Positions 2,768 through 7,932 of a stretch of 34,817 nt of DNA are shown one piece after another (position 1 is the first letter of the stretch; every line of letters starts with the position of its first letter). The translations under genes were made by a program, and so were the position numbers. Under the pieces are notes generated by a model, which worked only from the letters and a program-made list of their open reading frames with translations, was not told where the DNA came from and did no database searches. Origin of the DNA: Promethearchaeota archaeon (GTDB lineage: Archaea > Asgardarchaeota > Lokiarchaeia > Sigyniarchaeales > SOKP01); assembly GCA_048937405.1 (NCBI GenBank), contig JBHLNF010000023.1, positions 1-34,817 on the forward strand, given 5' to 3'.

Positions 2768-4475
2768 ATGTTTAATAAAGACTATTTGGAAAAAATTAAA
2801 TCAGAGAAAGAAAAATGGGAAGAATTGTATAAAAGATCAAGAGAAAGAGATGTAAAATTCGTTACGGACTCTGAAATTCCTATTAAGCAACTTTACACTC
2901 CTTTAGATTTAACAGATAAAGATTATTTGAGTGATATCAGTTTTCCCGGAATGCCTCCCTACACTCGGGGTGTTTATCCAAGTATGTATAGAGGGAGACT
3001 TTGGACTATGAGGTTATTCTCGGGACATGGAAAAAGTATTTCAATTTAGAAATATTTCTGTATCGCCCGAGGAAACAAATAAAAGGTGGAAGTTCCTTTA
3101 TGCAAATGGAGAAACTGGTTTTAGTGCAGCTGTAGATAATCTAACCTTTAATGGAATTGACCCTACAGAACCCGATGGAGCACCTGAAGTTGGGACATCA
3201 GGAGTACCGCTTTATTGTATTGATAGTTTTTTCGCTTTAGCTGAAGATATTCCCATAGATAAAATCAGCGTAGCTTTAGTAGTAGAACCTTTTACTTCTG
3301 CCCCTGTTTGCTCAATGTATTTTAATATGGCTCAAATGCGAGGTTATGACATAAGAAATTTGATGGGAACAACTCAAAATGATATTTTAACTATGACAGT
3401 AGGCTTTATTCCATATAAAAATTGTTCTCCTAACCATATACTTCGGTTAGCATGTGATTTCATAGAATGGACTGTAGCAATGAAGAATGTTCCCAAATGG
3501 CATCCAATAAATTTCACAGGATATAATTATAGAGAAGGAGGAATTGATGCTGTACAGGAATTAGGTTTTGTATTTGCAAGTGCTTGTTCTCATATTGATA
3601 ATTTAATTGAAAGAGGATGGAAAGCAGATGATTTTGTAGGACGTTTAGCATTTCATTTAGCAGCGCATAAAGATTTTTTTGAAGAAATTGCCAAATTCAG
3701 AGCTGCTCGAAGAATTTGGTATAAATTAATGAAAGACAAGTATGAAGTTAAAGATCCTAAAAACTTAGGTTTTAGGTTCCATGTACAAACAGCCGGATCT
3801 TCCTTAACAGCTCAATCACCTAAGATTAATATAATTAGAACAGCAATTCAAGCTTTAGAGGCAAATTTGGGTGGCTGTCAGTCTTTACATACAAATTCTT
3901 ATGATGAAGCAATTTGCTTGCCTTCTGAAGAAGCAGCTTTAATTGCGTTACGAACTCAGCAAGTAATTTCAGATGAAACTAGAATCCATAATACCATTGA
4001 TCCTCTTGCGGGTTCATACTTTATCGAATGGTTAACAGATGAGGTTGAAGAAAGAGTATGGAAATATATCGATAAAATCCAAAAAGTTGGTTCTATTGAT
4101 AAAGCTCTCTCATCAGGATTTTTATACAAAGAAATGAGAGATGCTTTCCATAAACGAAGAATGAAAATTGAAAATGGAGATGAAATAATGCTTGGTGTAA
4201 ATAAGTATCCAGTTCCTTATGATACAGTTACAGATGTTTTTAGAACAAATAAAAATGCAATTGATATTGAAGTAAATCGTATTGAAAAGTTAAAAGCTCG
4301 AAGAGATAATACAAAATTAGAGAAAATTTTAGATCAATTAAGAAATGTTTGTGAAAAAGAGGAAAACGTCATGCCGCTTGTTATGAAAGCTACAAGAGAG
4401 GGTGCTACTATAGGGGAAGTTTGTAATATCTATAGAGAAATTTGGGGGACCTGGGATCCTCCATTAGCAATCTAA
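2768..4475 (+). CDS. AdoCbl-dependent acyl-CoA mutase large subunit (MCM/ICM family), interrupted by a putative intron: join(2768..3032,3064..4475), 558 aa
   Basis: The first ORF carries FPGMPPYTRGVYPSMYRGRLWTMR. The second carries EETNKR, QNDIL, FFEEIAKFRAARRIW, FHVQTAG, QSLHTNSYDEA and DPLAGSYFIE. Removing 3033-3063 joins them in frame (1677 nt). Confidence 0.92.
3033..3063 (+). other. Putative 31-nt bulge-helix-bulge (BHB) intron in the mutase mRNA
   Basis: Sequence AAAGTATTTCAATTTAGAAATATTTCTGTAT. Exon stem 3017-3024/3066-3073 plus C3026-G3065; 4-bp helix AUGG(3027-30)/CUGU(3058-61); 3-nt bulges AAA(3031-33) and AUC(3062-64); 9-bp intron stem 3034-42/3049-57. It contains the in-frame TAG (3047-49). 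Confidence 0.85.
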
Positions 4476-4492: not shown

Positions 4493-4891
4493 ATGTCAGA
4501 AAAAAAAATAAGAGTACTTATGAGTAAACCTGGTATTGATGGTCATTGGCGTGGAGGTATTGTCGTCAGTCGTGCGATCCGTGATGCTGGTATGGAACTT
4601 ATATTTGGAGGATTTCAAAATGTCCGAGAAATTGTTGAAGCTGCAATACAAGAAGATGTTGACGTCATTGGGTTAAGTATTCATTCTGGTGCTCATTTAG
4701 CTTATACACAGCAGGTTATTGATTTATTAAAAAAGCGTGGTGTTCTTGATAATATTATGATTCTAGTTGGTGGAGTCGTTCCAGCAAAAGATTTCCCTAT
4801 GTTAAAAGAAATGGGGGTTGCTAATGTCTATGGTCCAGGTTCAATGACATCTGAAATTGTTGATTTTATTAAGACTCATATAAGGAAATAA
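4493..4891 (+). CDS. Acyl-CoA mutase small, cobalamin-binding subunit
   Basis: KPGIDGHWRG (DxHxxG), EDVDVIGLS and LVGGVVP motifs; directly follows the large subunit with a GAGGT SD-like site. Confidence 0.95.
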   Translation: MSEKKIRVLMSKPGIDGHWRGGIVVSRAIRDAGMELIFGGFQNVREIVEAAIQEDVDVIGLSIHSGAHLAYTQQVIDLLKKRGVLDNIMILVGGVVPAKDFPMLKEMGVANVYGPGSMTSEIVDFIKTHIRK

Positions 4892-5210: not shown

Positions 5211-6662
5211 ATGAAAATGAAGTATAAAAATATAGAAACGAAGCATGAGGTAATTGAATATTTGCAATCGTATTTTCTTGGTATTGGATTTCAAAAATTA
5301 AAGGAGCTTGTAATAGATAAAAAGAACTGTGTTTTTTGTGGCACTTGTACCTCATTATGCCCTCGTATTAGTATAAATGAAAAAAAACTCACACTATTAG
5401 ATTATGATCCAGAATGTTCCACCTGTTTCAGGTATTGCCCTAGAATATACTTTCCTAAAGAAATGTTTGAAAAAGAATTATTCCATAATAGAACAAAAAA
5501 AAGTGATACAATAGGATTTTATCAAAAATCTATCGCTGCTAAAAGTAATGATGATAATATATTGAAGGTTGCTCAAAATGGAGGAGTAGTATCTTCATTA
5601 CTTATACATGCTTTGGATACAGGATTGATAGATGGAGTTCTTCTTACCGATAGAGATGAAAAATGGTATCCAAAACCTACAATAGCACGAACTTCCAATG
5701 AGATCTTGTTATGTACTGGTTCTAAATATACAATTGCCCCGACCTTAAGTACATATAAAGACGCGATAAATGAATTAAAAATAAAAAAATTGGCATTTGT
5801 TGGAATGCCTTGCCAAATCCAAGCAGTACGAAAATTACAATTGTTTTCTCCTCTCTCAGAAGAGTATGGGAAATTTACATTAATTATAGGACTATACTGT
5901 TTCTCGAATTATTCGTATGATTTAATGAAGTTATTTGTTCAAGAAAAACTTGGAGTTTCACTAAGTAGTGTTAAGAAAATCGATATTTCACATGGTTCAT
6001 TTTATGTTTATATGAATAACGGATTAATAATAGTTCCAATAAAAGAAACTAAGAAATACATTTGGCCAAGTTGTCAATATTGTAAAGACTATTGCGCTGA
6101 ATTTGCAGATATTTCTGTTGGAAGTGTGGGAGCCTTTAAGAATGATTGGAATAGTGTAATATTACGGACGGATATAGGTGTAGAATTATTTAATGATGCA
6201 GTAGAAGTTAAGAAAATAATATCCTCTAATAAGATTGATCTATCTAAAATCGAGAAAGAATCAATTAGAAAAAAAACAAGAGTAACCCAAATTGATAAAA
6301 AAATACTAAGCACTATGCAGTTATTTAACATTTCTGATTTCGAAATAAAGACTTATATGACTCTAATGTCATTAGGAAATGCAAGTGAATCAAAATTAAG
6401 TAAGATTATGAAGACAGAGGAAAATGTTGTTAGAAACATACTTCAAAAGCTAAATCAACGTGAATGGGTTATAGCAGCAAATGGATCGTATAGTGCTGTC
6501 AGTCCTACCTTAGTTATTAATAATGAAATATATAAGTTAAAGCAGAATTTCTTCAAAAGTATTGAAAAACTGAAAACTGAAGTTCTTTCTAATTTAGAAT
6601 CGCTTTTTATACAAAATAATTTTAATCATGTACGACACGATGATATTTTAGATTTGGTCTAG
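5211..6662 (+). CDS. F420 hydrogenase/dehydrogenase beta-subunit (FrhB/FdhB family) protein with N-terminal ferredoxin motifs and a C-terminal TrmB-like winged HTH
   Basis: CVFCGTCTSLCP and CSTCFRYCP; AQNGGVVSSLL, GSKY, VGMPCQI, IGLYC, CQYCKDYCAEFADISVGSVG; the C-terminus ISDFEIKTYMTL..ASESKLSK..VVRNILQKL..YSAVSP resembles the TrmB N-domain. Confidence 0.85.
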   Translation: MKMKYKNIETKHEVIEYLQSYFLGIGFQKLKELVIDKKNCVFCGTCTSLCPRISINEKKLTLLDYDPECSTCFRYCPRIYFPKEMFEKELFHNRTKKSDTIGFYQKSIAAKSNDDNILKVAQNGGVVSSLLIHALDTGLIDGVLLTDRDEKWYPKPTIARTSNEILLCTGSKYTIAPTLSTYKDAINELKIKKLAFVGMPCQIQAVRKLQLFSPLSEEYGKFTLIIGLYCFSNYSYDLMKLFVQEKLGVSLSSVKKIDISHGSFYVYMNNGLIIVPIKETKKYIWPSCQYCKDYCAEFADISVGSVGAFKNDWNSVILRTDIGVELFNDAVEVKKIISSNKIDLSKIEKESIRKKTRVTQIDKKILSTMQLFNISDFEIKTYMTLMSLGNASESKLSKIMKTEENVVRNILQKLNQREWVIAANGSYSAVSPTLVINNEIYKLKQNFFKSIEKLKTEVLSNLESLFIQNNFNHVRHDDILDLV

Positions 6663-6945: not shown

Positions 6946-7932
6946 GTGAAAGTTTCTTATGATCTTGATACTTTAATTAATAACTTTAAGAATAAAGATA
7001 AAATTGCTCTAGCCAAATTAATTACGGTCTTAGAAAATGAACCAGAAAAAGCGCATGAGATATTCAAATATTTTGAAAATATCTCTCATGATTCTTATAT
7101 TATTGGAATTACTGGTTCACCAGGAGTAGGAAAAAGTACACTAACTGGAGCTATTTGTAAAAAAATATTAGCTGAAGGAAAATCAGTTGGTATTATTTGC
7201 GTCGATCCTACTTCTCCTTTTAGTGGGGGTGCCTTTTTAGGGGATAGAGTTCGTATGACTGATATATCATTACATCCAAACGTATTTTTAAGGAGTCTTG
7301 CTTCAAGAGGCTATAAAGGAGGTATATCAAGAGCTGTTTTTGACATAAGTTTATTGTATGAAGCATATGGAATGGATATAATTATAATTGAAACGGTTGG
7401 TGTTGGACAAGCAGAATTTGATATTTATAATCTTGCTTATTCTGTTATTGTAGTTCTAGTTCCTGGTTATGGGGATGCTATTCAAATGCAAAAAGCAGGA
7501 ATTATTGAAATTGGTGACTTATATGACATTAATAAAAAAGATTTAGGTGGAGAAGATATCGCGGTTCAAATTGAAATGATGCTTGATGATACTGTATTTC
7601 ATAGCGGATGGAGACCACCAGTTTCTATGACTGATGCTATTACGGGTGAGGGAATTGAAGAACTTCTCCAAAATATATGGGATCATAAGGAGCATCTTGA
7701 ACTCTCAGAAGCACTAAACCAGAAAAAGAAGAATAGGTTTTCATATAAGATTAAGGAACTCATTTATTCAAAAATTGAAAAATTAATCTCTGAAAGATTC
7801 ATCAATGAAAATGAGATTGAAGATATTGTAAATCATGCTCTTGATGACGGTAAATTTAAAATTTACAGAACTATTCATGACAAGTTTGAAGATATGAATT
7901 TTGAGATAAAAAAAAAGAGTAATCAATTCTAA
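6946..7932 (+). CDS. meaB: Mutase-associated GTPase chaperone MeaB/ArgK
   Basis: GITGSPGVGKST, VDPTSPFSGGAFLGDRVRM, IETVGVGQAE, GDAIQMQKAGIIEI and NKKD motifs; GTG start. Confidence 0.95.
   Translation: MKVSYDLDTLINNFKNKDKIALAKLITVLENEPEKAHEIFKYFENISHDSYIIGITGSPGVGKSTLTGAICKKILAEGKSVGIICVDPTSPFSGGAFLGDRVRMTDISLHPNVFLRSLASRGYKGGISRAVFDISLLYEAYGMDIIIIETVGVGQAEFDIYNLAYSVIVVLVPGYGDAIQMQKAGIIEIGDLYDINKKDLGGEDIAVQIEMMLDDTVFHSGWRPPVSMTDAITGEGIEELLQNIWDHKEHLELSEALNQKKKNRFSYKIKELIYSKIEKLISERFINENEIEDIVNHALDDGKFKIYRTIHDKFEDMNFEIKKKSNQF

What the first reader, a model, noticed from the sequence alone, without database searches (positions are those of the whole stretch)
3017..3073. Candidate bulge-helix-bulge (tRNA-endonuclease-type) intron in the mRNA of a B12 acyl-CoA mutase
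Seen in sequence: the large-subunit frame stops at TAG 3047-49, and homology resumes in the +1 frame at PEETNKR. The region folds into a full h-B-H-B-h' motif. The exon-exon stem is UUCUCGGG(3017-24)/CCCGAGGA(3066-73), with A3025 bulged and C3026-G3065 paired. The central 4-bp helix is AUGG(3027-30)/CUGU(3058-61), with two G-U pairs. The two 3-nt bulges on opposite strands are AAA(3031-33) and AUC(3062-64). The intron hairpin is AAGUAUUUC(3034-42)/GAAAUAUUU(3049-57). Established knowledge: archaeal EndA cuts after the second nucleotide of each bulge, and RtcB ligates the exons. Applying that rule removes exactly 3033-3063 (31 nt), which fixes the frame and creates ACG at the junction. The result, WTMRLFSGHG-T-PEETNKR, aligns without a gap to the family consensus WTMRQYAGFG-T-AEETNKR. 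The structure-derived cut sites and the homology-derived junction therefore agree independently. The well-known precedent for an archaeal mRNA intron is crenarchaeal cbf5. Inference: this is mRNA splicing of a metabolic gene in a probable Asgard archaeon, mechanistically related to eukaryotic RtcB/Trl1-ligated non-spliceosomal splicing.
Basis: partly seen in the sequence, partly recalled or inferred. Interest (0 to 1): 0.97.

Follow-up and report, generated by a model that had tools for sequence, protein, structure and literature searches.

The report
tRNA-type mini-intron in Asgard mutase gene
A 31-base insert shaped exactly like an archaeal tRNA intron splits a vitamin-B12 acyl-CoA mutase gene in a Loki-type Asgard archaeon, so the messenger RNA almost certainly has to be cut and rejoined by the tRNA-splicing enzymes, which the papers I could search confirm for the coding region of only one other archaeal gene (cbf5).

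Summary

- **The break.** The large-subunit gene of a B12 acyl-CoA mutase is broken at window 3033-3063. Pfam positions 2-56 and 57-512 lie on either side of the break.
- **Orthologues.** Of 79 orthologous loci, 73 lack exactly these 31 bases. That gap matches the cuts predicted by the bulge-helix-bulge (BHB) rule.
- **Chance.** A motif this good occurs at about 2e-8 per site and length in this genome.
- **Independent inserts.** One relative carries a different 30-nt BHB insert at the same site. Another carries a 32-nt BHB insert 7 nt downstream. Neither has a start codon for exon 2.
- **Intact genes.** All carriers keep both exons open, with dN/dS of 0.01-0.05.
- **Machinery.** The genome encodes two EndA subunits and RtcB.
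- **New here.** Intron carriers are scattered in the gene tree (AU p = 6.5e-12). They share an identical tract of about 60 nt of exon sequence around the intron. This suggests that intron plus flanks moved between species and genera by recombination.

I verified a second such intron in this genome, in an AIR-synthase-like gene. The scan had already noted this same mutase intron in other genomes, and similar introns in other genes of this genome.

The parts
2768..3032 (+). Exon 1 of the acyl-CoA mutase large subunit (88 codons plus the first base of the Thr codon)
   Evidence: ORF 2768-3049 matches PF01642 positions 2-56. It is open in all carriers.
3033..3063 (+). 31-nt BHB intron (type A); it holds the TAG at 3047-3049 that ends the unspliced frame
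   Evidence: This is exactly the gap in 73 intron-less orthologues. The type A intron sequence occurs once in this genome.
3064..4475 (+). Exon 2 of the mutase large subunit (last two bases of the Thr codon, 469 codons, and the stop)
   Evidence: PF01642 positions 57-512 and TIGR00641. dN/dS is 0.012-0.05.
3017..3026 (+). 5' strand of the exon-exon helix h (A3025 unpaired)
   Evidence: Pairs with 3065-3073. The pair G3022-C3068 becomes A-U in two metagenomic carriers.
3027..3030 (+). 5' strand of the central 4-bp helix H (AUGG)
   Evidence: Pairs with CUGU at 3058-3061. The partner strand is UCAU in the type B intron, and all four pairs are kept.
3031..3033 (+). 5' bulge AAA; predicted cut between 3032 and 3033
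   Evidence: Sequence. The cut position agrees with the orthologue gap.
3034..3057 (+). Intron hairpin h': 9 bp (3034-3042 with 3049-3057) and loop 3043-3048
   Evidence: Recovered in the minimum-free-energy fold. In type B, 7 of the 9 pairs differ on both sides and still pair.
3058..3061 (+). 3' strand of the central helix H (CUGU)
   Evidence: The G3060>A change in G005 turns U.G into U-A.
3062..3064 (+). 3' bulge AUC; predicted cut between 3063 and 3064
3065..3073 (+). 3' strand of the exon-exon helix h
2984..3077 (+). Mosaic tract (about 48 nt of exon 1, the intron, and about 12 nt of exon 2). It is identical or nearly so among type A carriers but differs from each carrier's intron-less sister gene.
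   Evidence: For L038, 11 of 11 informative sites inside the tract side with L002, while 169 of 205 outside it side with the sister L048.
4493..4891 (+). B12-binding subunit of the mutase (downstream gene, same strand)
   Evidence: PF02310 and TIGR00640.
6946..7932 (+). MeaB, the mutase-associated GTPase
   Evidence: TIGR00750 and PF03308.

Best explanation
Window 3033-3063 is a bulge-helix-bulge (tRNA-endonuclease-type) intron in the pre-mRNA of a B12-dependent acyl-CoA mutase large subunit of a Promethearchaeota (Loki-type Asgard) archaeon.

Proposed mechanism:
1. The transcript folds so that codons on either side pair with each other (helix h). A 4-bp helix H is then flanked by two 3-nt bulges on opposite strands, and the rest of the intron forms a 9-bp hairpin (h').
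2. The two-subunit splicing endonuclease EndA cuts after the second base of each bulge.
3. RtcB joins the exons. This restores the frame and creates the Thr codon ACG in ...RLFSGHG-T-PEETNKR...

The unspliced message would give only a 93-residue fragment.

Shown here: the structure; the exact agreement of its cut sites with the orthologue gap; intact exons in every carrier; independent BHB inserts in the same gene in two other lineages; and the presence of the enzymes.

Inferred: that cleavage and ligation actually occur.

Secondary inference (about 55% likely): the intron with about 60 nt of flanking exon spread between species, and between two genera, by homologous recombination, rather than being inherited vertically with many losses.
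For: 1. Homology is contiguous across the break. Pfam positions run 2-56 then 57-512. The uninterrupted paralogue on contig C19 aligns to the spliced junction peptide over 100 residues without a gap.
2. 73 of 79 orthologous loci lack exactly 3033-3063 and read GGN-ACN-CCN. No other placement of the gap gives Thr.
3. The BHB motif is strong. It folds with z = -4.05. It ranks in the top 7 of 3.8e8 site-and-length combinations in the genome.
4. Locus L086 has an unrelated 30-nt insert at the same site with the same architecture. 7 of 9 h' pairs and 3 of 4 H pairs are changed yet still pair. That motif occurs at a rate of 1.3e-8.
5. Locus L103 has a 32-nt BHB insert 7 nt downstream, and its rule-predicted cuts restore PEE-TN.
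6. All 7 carriers among the genome-contig loci keep exon 1 (about 88 aa) and exon 2 (467-469 aa) open. L086 and L103 have no start codon available for exon 2.
7. dN/dS between carriers and intron-less neighbours is 0.012-0.05. This is the same as between intron-less pairs.
8. The changes seen in the intron and helix of most type A carriers keep the pairs. G.U becomes G-C, U.G becomes U-A, and G-C becomes A-U on both sides.
9. Two EndA-family genes of about 200 aa and one RtcB gene are present. This matches the broad-specificity (alpha-beta)2 enzyme reported for Asgard archaea (PMC5829648).
10. The insert appears in at least 6 species-level genomes and in several independent assemblies, so it is not an assembly error.
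11. The same cut rule restores a second gene of this genome, an AIR-synthase-like gene. 6 of 27 congeners are interrupted at that place, and most of the others are open for 464-476 aa.
Against:
- Within type A the sequences are too alike for significant covariation. 106 of 500 shuffles did as well.
- Helix h has a single pair next to the 3' bulge, then an unpaired A, so the motif is not a textbook strict hBHBh'.
- The YT5_023/G110 copy has three mismatches (two C.A and one A.G), and its BHB is weak.
- If the intron spread recently, the low dN/dS mostly reflects history before its arrival and says less about function afterwards.
- BHB-like motifs as a class are not enriched over mirror motifs in this genome.
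- A 41%-identical uninterrupted paralogue exists on contig C19, so loss of this gene might be tolerated.
Confidence: 0.85

Rival explanations
1. The insert is an inactivating insertion. The gene is a recent pseudogene that is transcribed but never spliced.
For: The unspliced frame stops 14 nt into the insert. An intact paralogue exists on contig C19. If the insert arrived recently by recombination, there may have been little time for further decay. The YT5_023 copy has a weakened motif.
Against: Three different inserts in this gene (types A, B and C) all have BHB geometry, with cuts that restore the frame exactly. No carrier among about 9 has a second lesion. Most changes in the intron and helix keep the pairs. 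The B12-binding subunit and MeaB genes next to it are intact. A deleterious insert would not be expected to spread across species and genera.
Confidence: 0.06
2. The gene is split. A 93-aa N-terminal piece and a C-terminal piece started at ATG 3027 are translated separately and assemble into an active enzyme.
For: ATG 3027 opens the downstream frame in type A carriers. A GAGG lies 13 nt upstream of it.
Against: Types B (L086) and C (L103) have no ATG, GTG or TTG for exon 2. Their first Met lies about 82-84 residues in. The break falls inside the conserved motif GHG-T-PEE. This reading explains neither the BHB shape nor the exact 31-nt gap.
Confidence: 0.04
3. The ribosome bypasses the 31 nt (translational hopping, as in phage T4 gene 60), or shifts frame.
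For: A hairpin with a stop codon sits just after a GGA codon, which loosely resembles the gene 60 gap. cbf5 introns were once mistaken for frameshifts (PMC2738675).
Against: No matching take-off and landing codons bracket 3033-3063. The only later GGA, at 3071-3073, would delete the conserved T-P-E. Types B and C have different sequences and lengths (30 and 32 nt) but share only the BHB geometry.
Confidence: 0.02
4. The insert is removed from the RNA, but by a nuclease and ligase other than EndA and RtcB.
For: The enzymes were not tested. Helix h is irregular, and one copy is a relaxed motif.
Against: The geometry and cut positions are those of EndA substrates (definition of the motif in PMC3978253; cut positions from established knowledge of archaeal EndA). 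The genome has the broad-specificity two-subunit EndA and RtcB (PMC5829648). 31 nt is far too short for a self-splicing intron.
Confidence: 0.03

Closest known systems
BHB intron of the cbf5 (pseudouridine synthase) pre-mRNA in Crenarchaeota (Watanabe 2002; Yoshinari 2006; Yokobori 2009, PMC2738675)
   Same: It is a short BHB intron inside the coding region of an archaeal protein gene. The host has a two-subunit EndA. Presence and absence are lineage-specific among relatives, and annotation pipelines misread the gene as broken.
   Different: The host lineage is Asgard rather than Desulfurococcales/Sulfolobales. The gene is a metabolic enzyme rather than an RNA-modification enzyme. cbf5 splicing was shown experimentally, whereas this one was not. 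The cbf5 intron follows the species tree with a few losses, whereas this intron is scattered in the gene tree and shares a co-converted flank.
BHB intron in the 5' UTR of HVO_1309 mRNA in Haloferax volcanii (PMC7714728)
   Same: It is an mRNA substrate of the archaeal splicing endonuclease.
   Different: That intron lies in an untranslated leader and does not interrupt a reading frame. The present one is in a conserved protein motif and shifts the frame.
[quoted passage not shown]
   Same: The motif, the predicted enzymes and the size range are the same. ARAGORN reports 12-46 nt tRNA introns in this genome. Gains are repeated and independent.
   Different: The host RNA is a messenger. No sequence similarity to any other place in this genome was found.
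IRE1-dependent unconventional splicing of XBP1/HAC1 mRNA in eukaryotes
   Same: It works in a similar way. A very short frame-shifting intron (26 nt in XBP1) is removed by a protein endonuclease at RNA structures, and the exons are joined by the tRNA ligase (RtcB in animals). No spliceosome is involved. This comparison rests on established knowledge; see also PMC13149111.
   Different: The nuclease differs (IRE1, acting at two stem-loops, rather than EndA at a BHB). That system is regulated by stress, and no regulation is shown here. There is no evidence of common descent.
Homing of group I introns and inteins (co-conversion of flanking exons)
   Same: The distribution is patchy and incongruent with the host gene. 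Insertion is in a highly conserved motif. A short tract of flanking exon travels with the element.
   Different: A 31-nt intron cannot encode a homing endonuclease. Spread would have to rely on ordinary homologous recombination or an unknown route.

Membership tests
Archaeal BHB (EndA-type) intron | Two 3-nt bulges on opposite strands, separated by a 4-bp helix | tested here: met
   AAA 3031-3033 and AUC 3062-3064 flank AUGG 3027-3030 / CUGU 3058-3061, which form A-U, U.G, G.U and G-C.
Archaeal BHB (EndA-type) intron | [quoted passage not shown] | tested here: met
   h' has 9 bp. h has 9 pairs in total but is irregular: C3026-G3065, then unpaired A3025, then 8 bp. It is therefore near-strict.
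Archaeal BHB (EndA-type) intron | Cuts after the second base of each bulge give the functional exon junction | tested here: met
   The predicted excision of 3033-3063 equals the gap in 73 intron-less orthologues and restores GHG-T-PEE. The same rule works for types B and C and for the AIR-synthase-like gene.
Archaeal BHB (EndA-type) intron | The structure is kept by compensatory change | tested here: inconclusive
   Within type A there is one double change and two one-sided changes, which is not significant. Between types A and B, 7 of 9 h' pairs change on both sides, but the two introns may not be homologous.
Archaeal BHB (EndA-type) intron | The host encodes the splicing endonuclease and the RtcB ligase | tested here: met
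   Two EndA genes (C27 and C8, TIGR00324 above cut-off) and one RtcB gene (C25).
Archaeal BHB (EndA-type) intron | The spliced RNA and the excised (often circular) intron are observed | not testable with these tools
Mobile (homing-type) intron | Distribution is incongruent with the host gene phylogeny | tested here: met
   The AU test rejects one clade of carriers (p = 6.5e-12). The intron is in 5 of 54 genomes of genus g1 and 1 of 42 of genus g22.
Mobile (homing-type) intron | Flanking exon sequence is co-converted | tested here: met
   In the tract from -48 to +12, carriers match each other and not their sisters. The tract limits were chosen after looking, so the p-values are optimistic.
Mobile (homing-type) intron | The intron encodes a homing endonuclease or reverse transcriptase | tested here: not met
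   31 nt has no coding capacity. No other copy exists in the genome.
Methylmalonyl-CoA mutase proper (equivalog) | Score above the NCBIfam equivalog cut-off | tested here: not met
   NF006944 scores 367.9 bits against a cut-off of 876. Only the subfamily domain model TIGR00641 passes. The gene is best called an acyl-CoA mutase of undetermined substrate.

The most novel reading that the evidence does not exclude
Short BHB introns are a mobile class of element in the protein-coding genes of Promethearchaeota. They settle in conserved motifs where the neighbouring codons can pair. They are removed by the tRNA-splicing enzymes. They spread between species and genera by recombination that carries about 60 nt of exon with them. 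On this reading, routine protein-dependent mRNA splicing and intron gain exist in the closest archaeal relatives of eukaryotes.
Probability: 0.5. Interest if true: 0.92.

Novelty: new member of a known kind. Interest (0 to 1): 0.82.

Why it matters
The papers I could search confirm splicing by the tRNA machinery for only one archaeal coding-region intron, cbf5 in Crenarchaeota. They report one further case in a 5' UTR, in Haloferax. I found none for Asgard protein genes (PMC2738675, PMC7714728).

A frame-shifting intron in an ordinary metabolic gene of a Loki-type archaeon has three consequences:
- Gene callers mis-annotate such genes as broken.
- Messenger-RNA splicing by protein enzymes occurs in the lineage nearest to eukaryotes.
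- The presence/absence pattern with a co-converted flank gives a concrete, testable case of how introns enter and move between protein genes in archaea. A recent preprint on Asgard tRNA introns left that question open.

Tried and rejected
- **De novo genome-wide search for more mRNA introns.**
  - BHB-shaped motifs are no more frequent than mirror-image motifs.
  - Motifs that join two long frames in phase are no more frequent than out-of-phase ones, apart from a slight excess at the strictest settings.
  - Bulge sequences show no signature.
  - In this 29% G+C genome the motif alone is therefore not informative. Only the very best-scoring hits were real: this site and the AIR-synthase-like gene.
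  - Junction peptides searched against the genome mainly hit themselves.
- **Covariation among type A copies.** It is not significant. MAFFT also misaligned the type B intron, so I counted those pairs on a hand-made structural alignment.
- **Assembly artefact.** Rejected, because the insert appears in several independent assemblies.
- **Repeated mobile element within the genome.** Rejected, because the intron is single-copy.
- **Rfam.** No match in the window.
- **Checking the cut rule on a tRNA intron.** I tried this by hand on a tRNA-Gly intron reported by ARAGORN and abandoned it, because ARAGORN's intron boundaries did not give a clean BHB.
Full report
**What is in the sequence**

The window carries an acyl-CoA mutase cluster on the + strand:
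- a large-subunit gene in two frames (2768-3049 and 3027-4475);
- a B12-binding subunit gene (4493-4891);
- after one intervening gene, the MeaB GTPase gene (6946-7932).

The first ORF matches Pfam PF01642 at profile positions 2-56, and the second at 57-512. The homology is therefore contiguous, and the two parts are separated by 31 extra bases plus a +1 frame change.

The region folds far better than shuffled versions: -21.3 against -10.8 +/- 2.6 kcal/mol, z = -4.05. The exact bulge-helix-bulge (BHB) structure lies only 2.4 kcal/mol above the minimum free energy of the 63-nt region 3014-3076.

NCBIfam places the protein in the acyl-CoA mutase N-terminal domain subfamily, but below the cut-off for methylmalonyl-CoA mutase proper. 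I therefore call it an acyl-CoA mutase of undetermined substrate.

**Is it more than chance?**

I scanned the whole 4.47-Mb genome, on both strands and for intron lengths of 18-60 nt, for the same geometry. Only 7 of about 3.8e8 site-and-length combinations scored as high as this one, a rate of about 1.8e-8 at a fixed site and length.

BHB-shaped motifs as a class are no commoner than their mirror image in this 29% G+C genome. Motifs that join two long frames in phase are not clearly commoner than out-of-phase ones either. The motif alone therefore proves nothing here. What is significant is that one of the best motifs in the genome sits exactly on a homology break.

**Comparative evidence**

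Record titles of close relatives identify the organism as a Promethearchaeota (Loki-type Asgard) MAG.
- Among 79 orthologous loci from species-representative genomes, 73 lack an insert and read GGN-ACN-CCN-GAR.
- The alignment gap is exactly window 3033-3063, the segment predicted by cutting after the second base of each bulge. No other placement gives the conserved Thr.
- Four loci carry the same 31-nt intron (type A).
- L086 carries an unrelated 30-nt insert at the same site (type B).
- L103 carries a 32-nt insert 7 nt downstream (type C).

Type B has the same architecture as type A. 7 of 9 hairpin pairs are changed on both sides and 3 of 4 central-helix pairs are altered, yet all still pair. 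Its motif score is as rare as that of type A, at 1.3e-8. In type C the rule-predicted cuts restore ...PEE-TN....

Three further metagenome contigs carry type A, always in this gene. Two of them show a compensatory G-C to A-U change in the exon helix. An order-wide pattern search found type A in 6 of 153 genomes, with no hits to the reversed control pattern. Five of those are among 54 genomes of the window's genus, and one is among 42 genomes of another genus. The insert therefore appears in several independent assemblies and is not an assembly error.

**Is the gene alive?**

All 7 carriers among the genome-contig loci keep both exons open: about 88 aa, and 467-469 aa with a proper stop. dN/dS between carriers and their nearest intron-less neighbours is 0.012-0.05. 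This is the same as between intron-less pairs, at dS of 0.4 to above 1.

Types B and C have no start codon from which exon 2 could be translated on its own. This argues against a split gene made as two polypeptides.

There is one caveat. If the intron arrived recently in each lineage (see the section on movement between lineages), most of that divergence predates it, so the dN/dS figures say less about selection after arrival. The absence of any second lesion in about nine carriers, and the pair-preserving nature of the changes in most type A copies, still favour function.

**Machinery**

The genome has two EndA-family genes of about 200 aa, each with the N-terminal and catalytic domains, and one RtcB gene. 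This fits the (alpha-beta)2 endonuclease with the L1 loop that has been reported for Asgard archaea and linked to broad substrate specificity (PMC5829648).

ARAGORN finds only 14 tRNA genes in the genome, and 9 of them have reported introns. This agrees with a recent preprint reporting that tRNA genes in some Asgard lineages are heavily interrupted (bioRxiv 10.64898/2026.10.13.758758).

**How it most likely works**

The pre-mRNA folds so that the codons for F-S-G and P-E-E pair with each other (helix h). The intron supplies the 3' strand of the central helix and a 9-bp hairpin. EndA cuts at 3032/3033 and 3063/3064, and RtcB joins the exons into GGA-A|CG-CCC. The structure, the cut positions and the enzymes are shown here.

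**Movement between lineages**

In a tree of exon 2, type A carriers are not one clade. The best tree that holds them together is 585 log-likelihood units worse (AU p = 6.5e-12).

Their introns nevertheless differ at only 0-2 of 31 positions, while synonymous divergence of the host genes is 0.45 to saturation.

A dot plot shows a mosaic. From about 48 nt upstream to 12 nt downstream of the intron, carriers are identical or nearly identical to each other. Outside that tract each resembles its own intron-less sister. For L038, 11 of 11 informative sites inside the tract side with L002, whereas 169 of 205 outside it side with the sister L048 (Fisher p = 2e-8). Similar results hold for L078, L036, L118 and L086, but not for L059. 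I chose the tract limits after looking, so these p-values are optimistic.

The simplest reading is that the intron with a short piece of exon moved between species, and between two genera, by recombination. This resembles the exon co-conversion seen in intron homing, although a 31-nt intron cannot encode a homing enzyme. The alternative is an old intron allele whose linkage block was eroded by recombination, combined with many precise losses. That alternative cannot be excluded.

Part of the tract is exactly the set of synonymous positions that turn A-U pairs of helix h into G-C pairs: TTC TCG / CCC GAG in most type A and B carriers, against TTT TCA / CCT GAA in most intron-less genes. Selection for the helix therefore explains some of the tract, but not all of it.

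**Why this site?**

In most intron-less orthologues the same codons already form an 8-bp hairpin stem (UUUUCAGG with CCUGAAGA; read). Two independent insertion points lie within 7 nt of each other. A pre-existing helix may make the site receptive. This is inference.

**Generality**

The second-best short motif in my scan that joins two long frames is a 29-nt insert in an AIR-synthase-like gene on contig C7. Exon 2 matches AIRS and AIRS_C. In 27 congeners with the gene, 6 are interrupted at the same place and most of the others are open for 464-476 aa. This matches the 162 + 301 codons that flank the insert here.

Earlier notes of this scan list further candidates in this genome: mevalonate kinase, AMP phosphorylase, PFK, rpo10 and hdrA. 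They also note this same mutase intron in other genomes. I tested only the AIR-synthase case, and I confirmed that the mutase copy in G024 matches one of those notes.

**Comparison with what is known**

In the papers I could search, the only archaeal mRNA BHB introns described are two:
- cbf5 in Crenarchaeota, in the coding region and experimentally spliced (PMC2738675);
- the 5' UTR of HVO_1309 in Haloferax (PMC7714728).

The Haloferax paper states that cbf5 was the only earlier example. I found no paper on such introns in Asgard protein genes.

This intron meets the structural definition of the family (PMC3978253), with one irregularity in helix h. It is not related by descent to the cbf5 intron. 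In its logic it also resembles XBP1/HAC1 splicing: a tiny frame-shifting intron, a protein nuclease, and the tRNA ligase. The nuclease differs, however.

**Verdict**

It is a new member of a known but very rare kind, with added evidence for lateral spread. The missing piece is direct RNA or enzyme evidence.

Noticed in passing
G000 contig C7 314151-314179 (L035 1852-1880, minus strand): A second mRNA BHB intron in the same genome. A 29-nt G+C-richer insert splits an AIR-synthase-like gene into frames of 162 and 301 codons. 6 of 27 congeners are interrupted at the same place, and most of the others are open for 464-476 aa.
   Followed up: yes
L086 1379-1440 (JBHLLE010000123.1): A type B intron: an unrelated 30-nt BHB insert at exactly the same site of the mutase gene. 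It has the same exon flanks as type A carriers and an in-frame TAA. Whether it derives from type A or is an independent gain is open.
   Followed up: partly
L103 2948-3039 (CAZIEC010000035.1): A type C intron: a 32-nt BHB insert 7 nt downstream (after the GAA of P-E-E) in a more distant orthologue. This is an independent gain in the same short stretch.
   Followed up: partly
window 3017-3024 and 3066-3073, and the same codons in intron-less orthologues (L037-L115): The codons for F-S-G and P-E-E are complementary in most intron-less genes too (UUUUCAGG with CCUGAAGA). A hairpin therefore pre-exists at the site and may predispose it to intron gain.
   Followed up: no
whole genome G000: ARAGORN finds only 14 tRNA genes in a 4.47-Mb genome rated 100% complete, and 9 of them have reported introns of 12-46 nt. 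This fits the heavy interruption of Asgard tRNA genes described in a 2026 preprint.
   Followed up: no
L136 (G110:C136:16976-17017) / L059: The type A copy in the other genus (YT5_023) has three mismatches in helices h and H (two C.A and one A.G), yet both exons are intact. It may be a relaxed substrate or a copy beginning to decay.
   Followed up: partly
window 5211-6662: The gene between the B12-binding subunit and MeaB is a fusion of FrhB/FdhB-like domains (F420 hydrogenase beta type, with 4Fe-4S motifs) and a C-terminal TrmB-type HTH domain. This is an unusual pairing of a redox module with a DNA-binding domain.
   Followed up: no
record titles of L036, L039, L045, L065, L077, L097: Contigs with 85-95% identical mutase genes are labelled Odin-, Hod-, Hermod- or Thorarchaeota, and one is labelled Nanopelagicaceae bacterium. 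These are probably mislabelled or mis-binned Promethearchaeota contigs.
   Followed up: no
G000 contig C19 243137-244519: An uninterrupted paralogue of the mutase large subunit (41% identity, motif RQFAGFG). This genome therefore has two acyl-CoA mutases, and only one carries the intron.
   Followed up: partly
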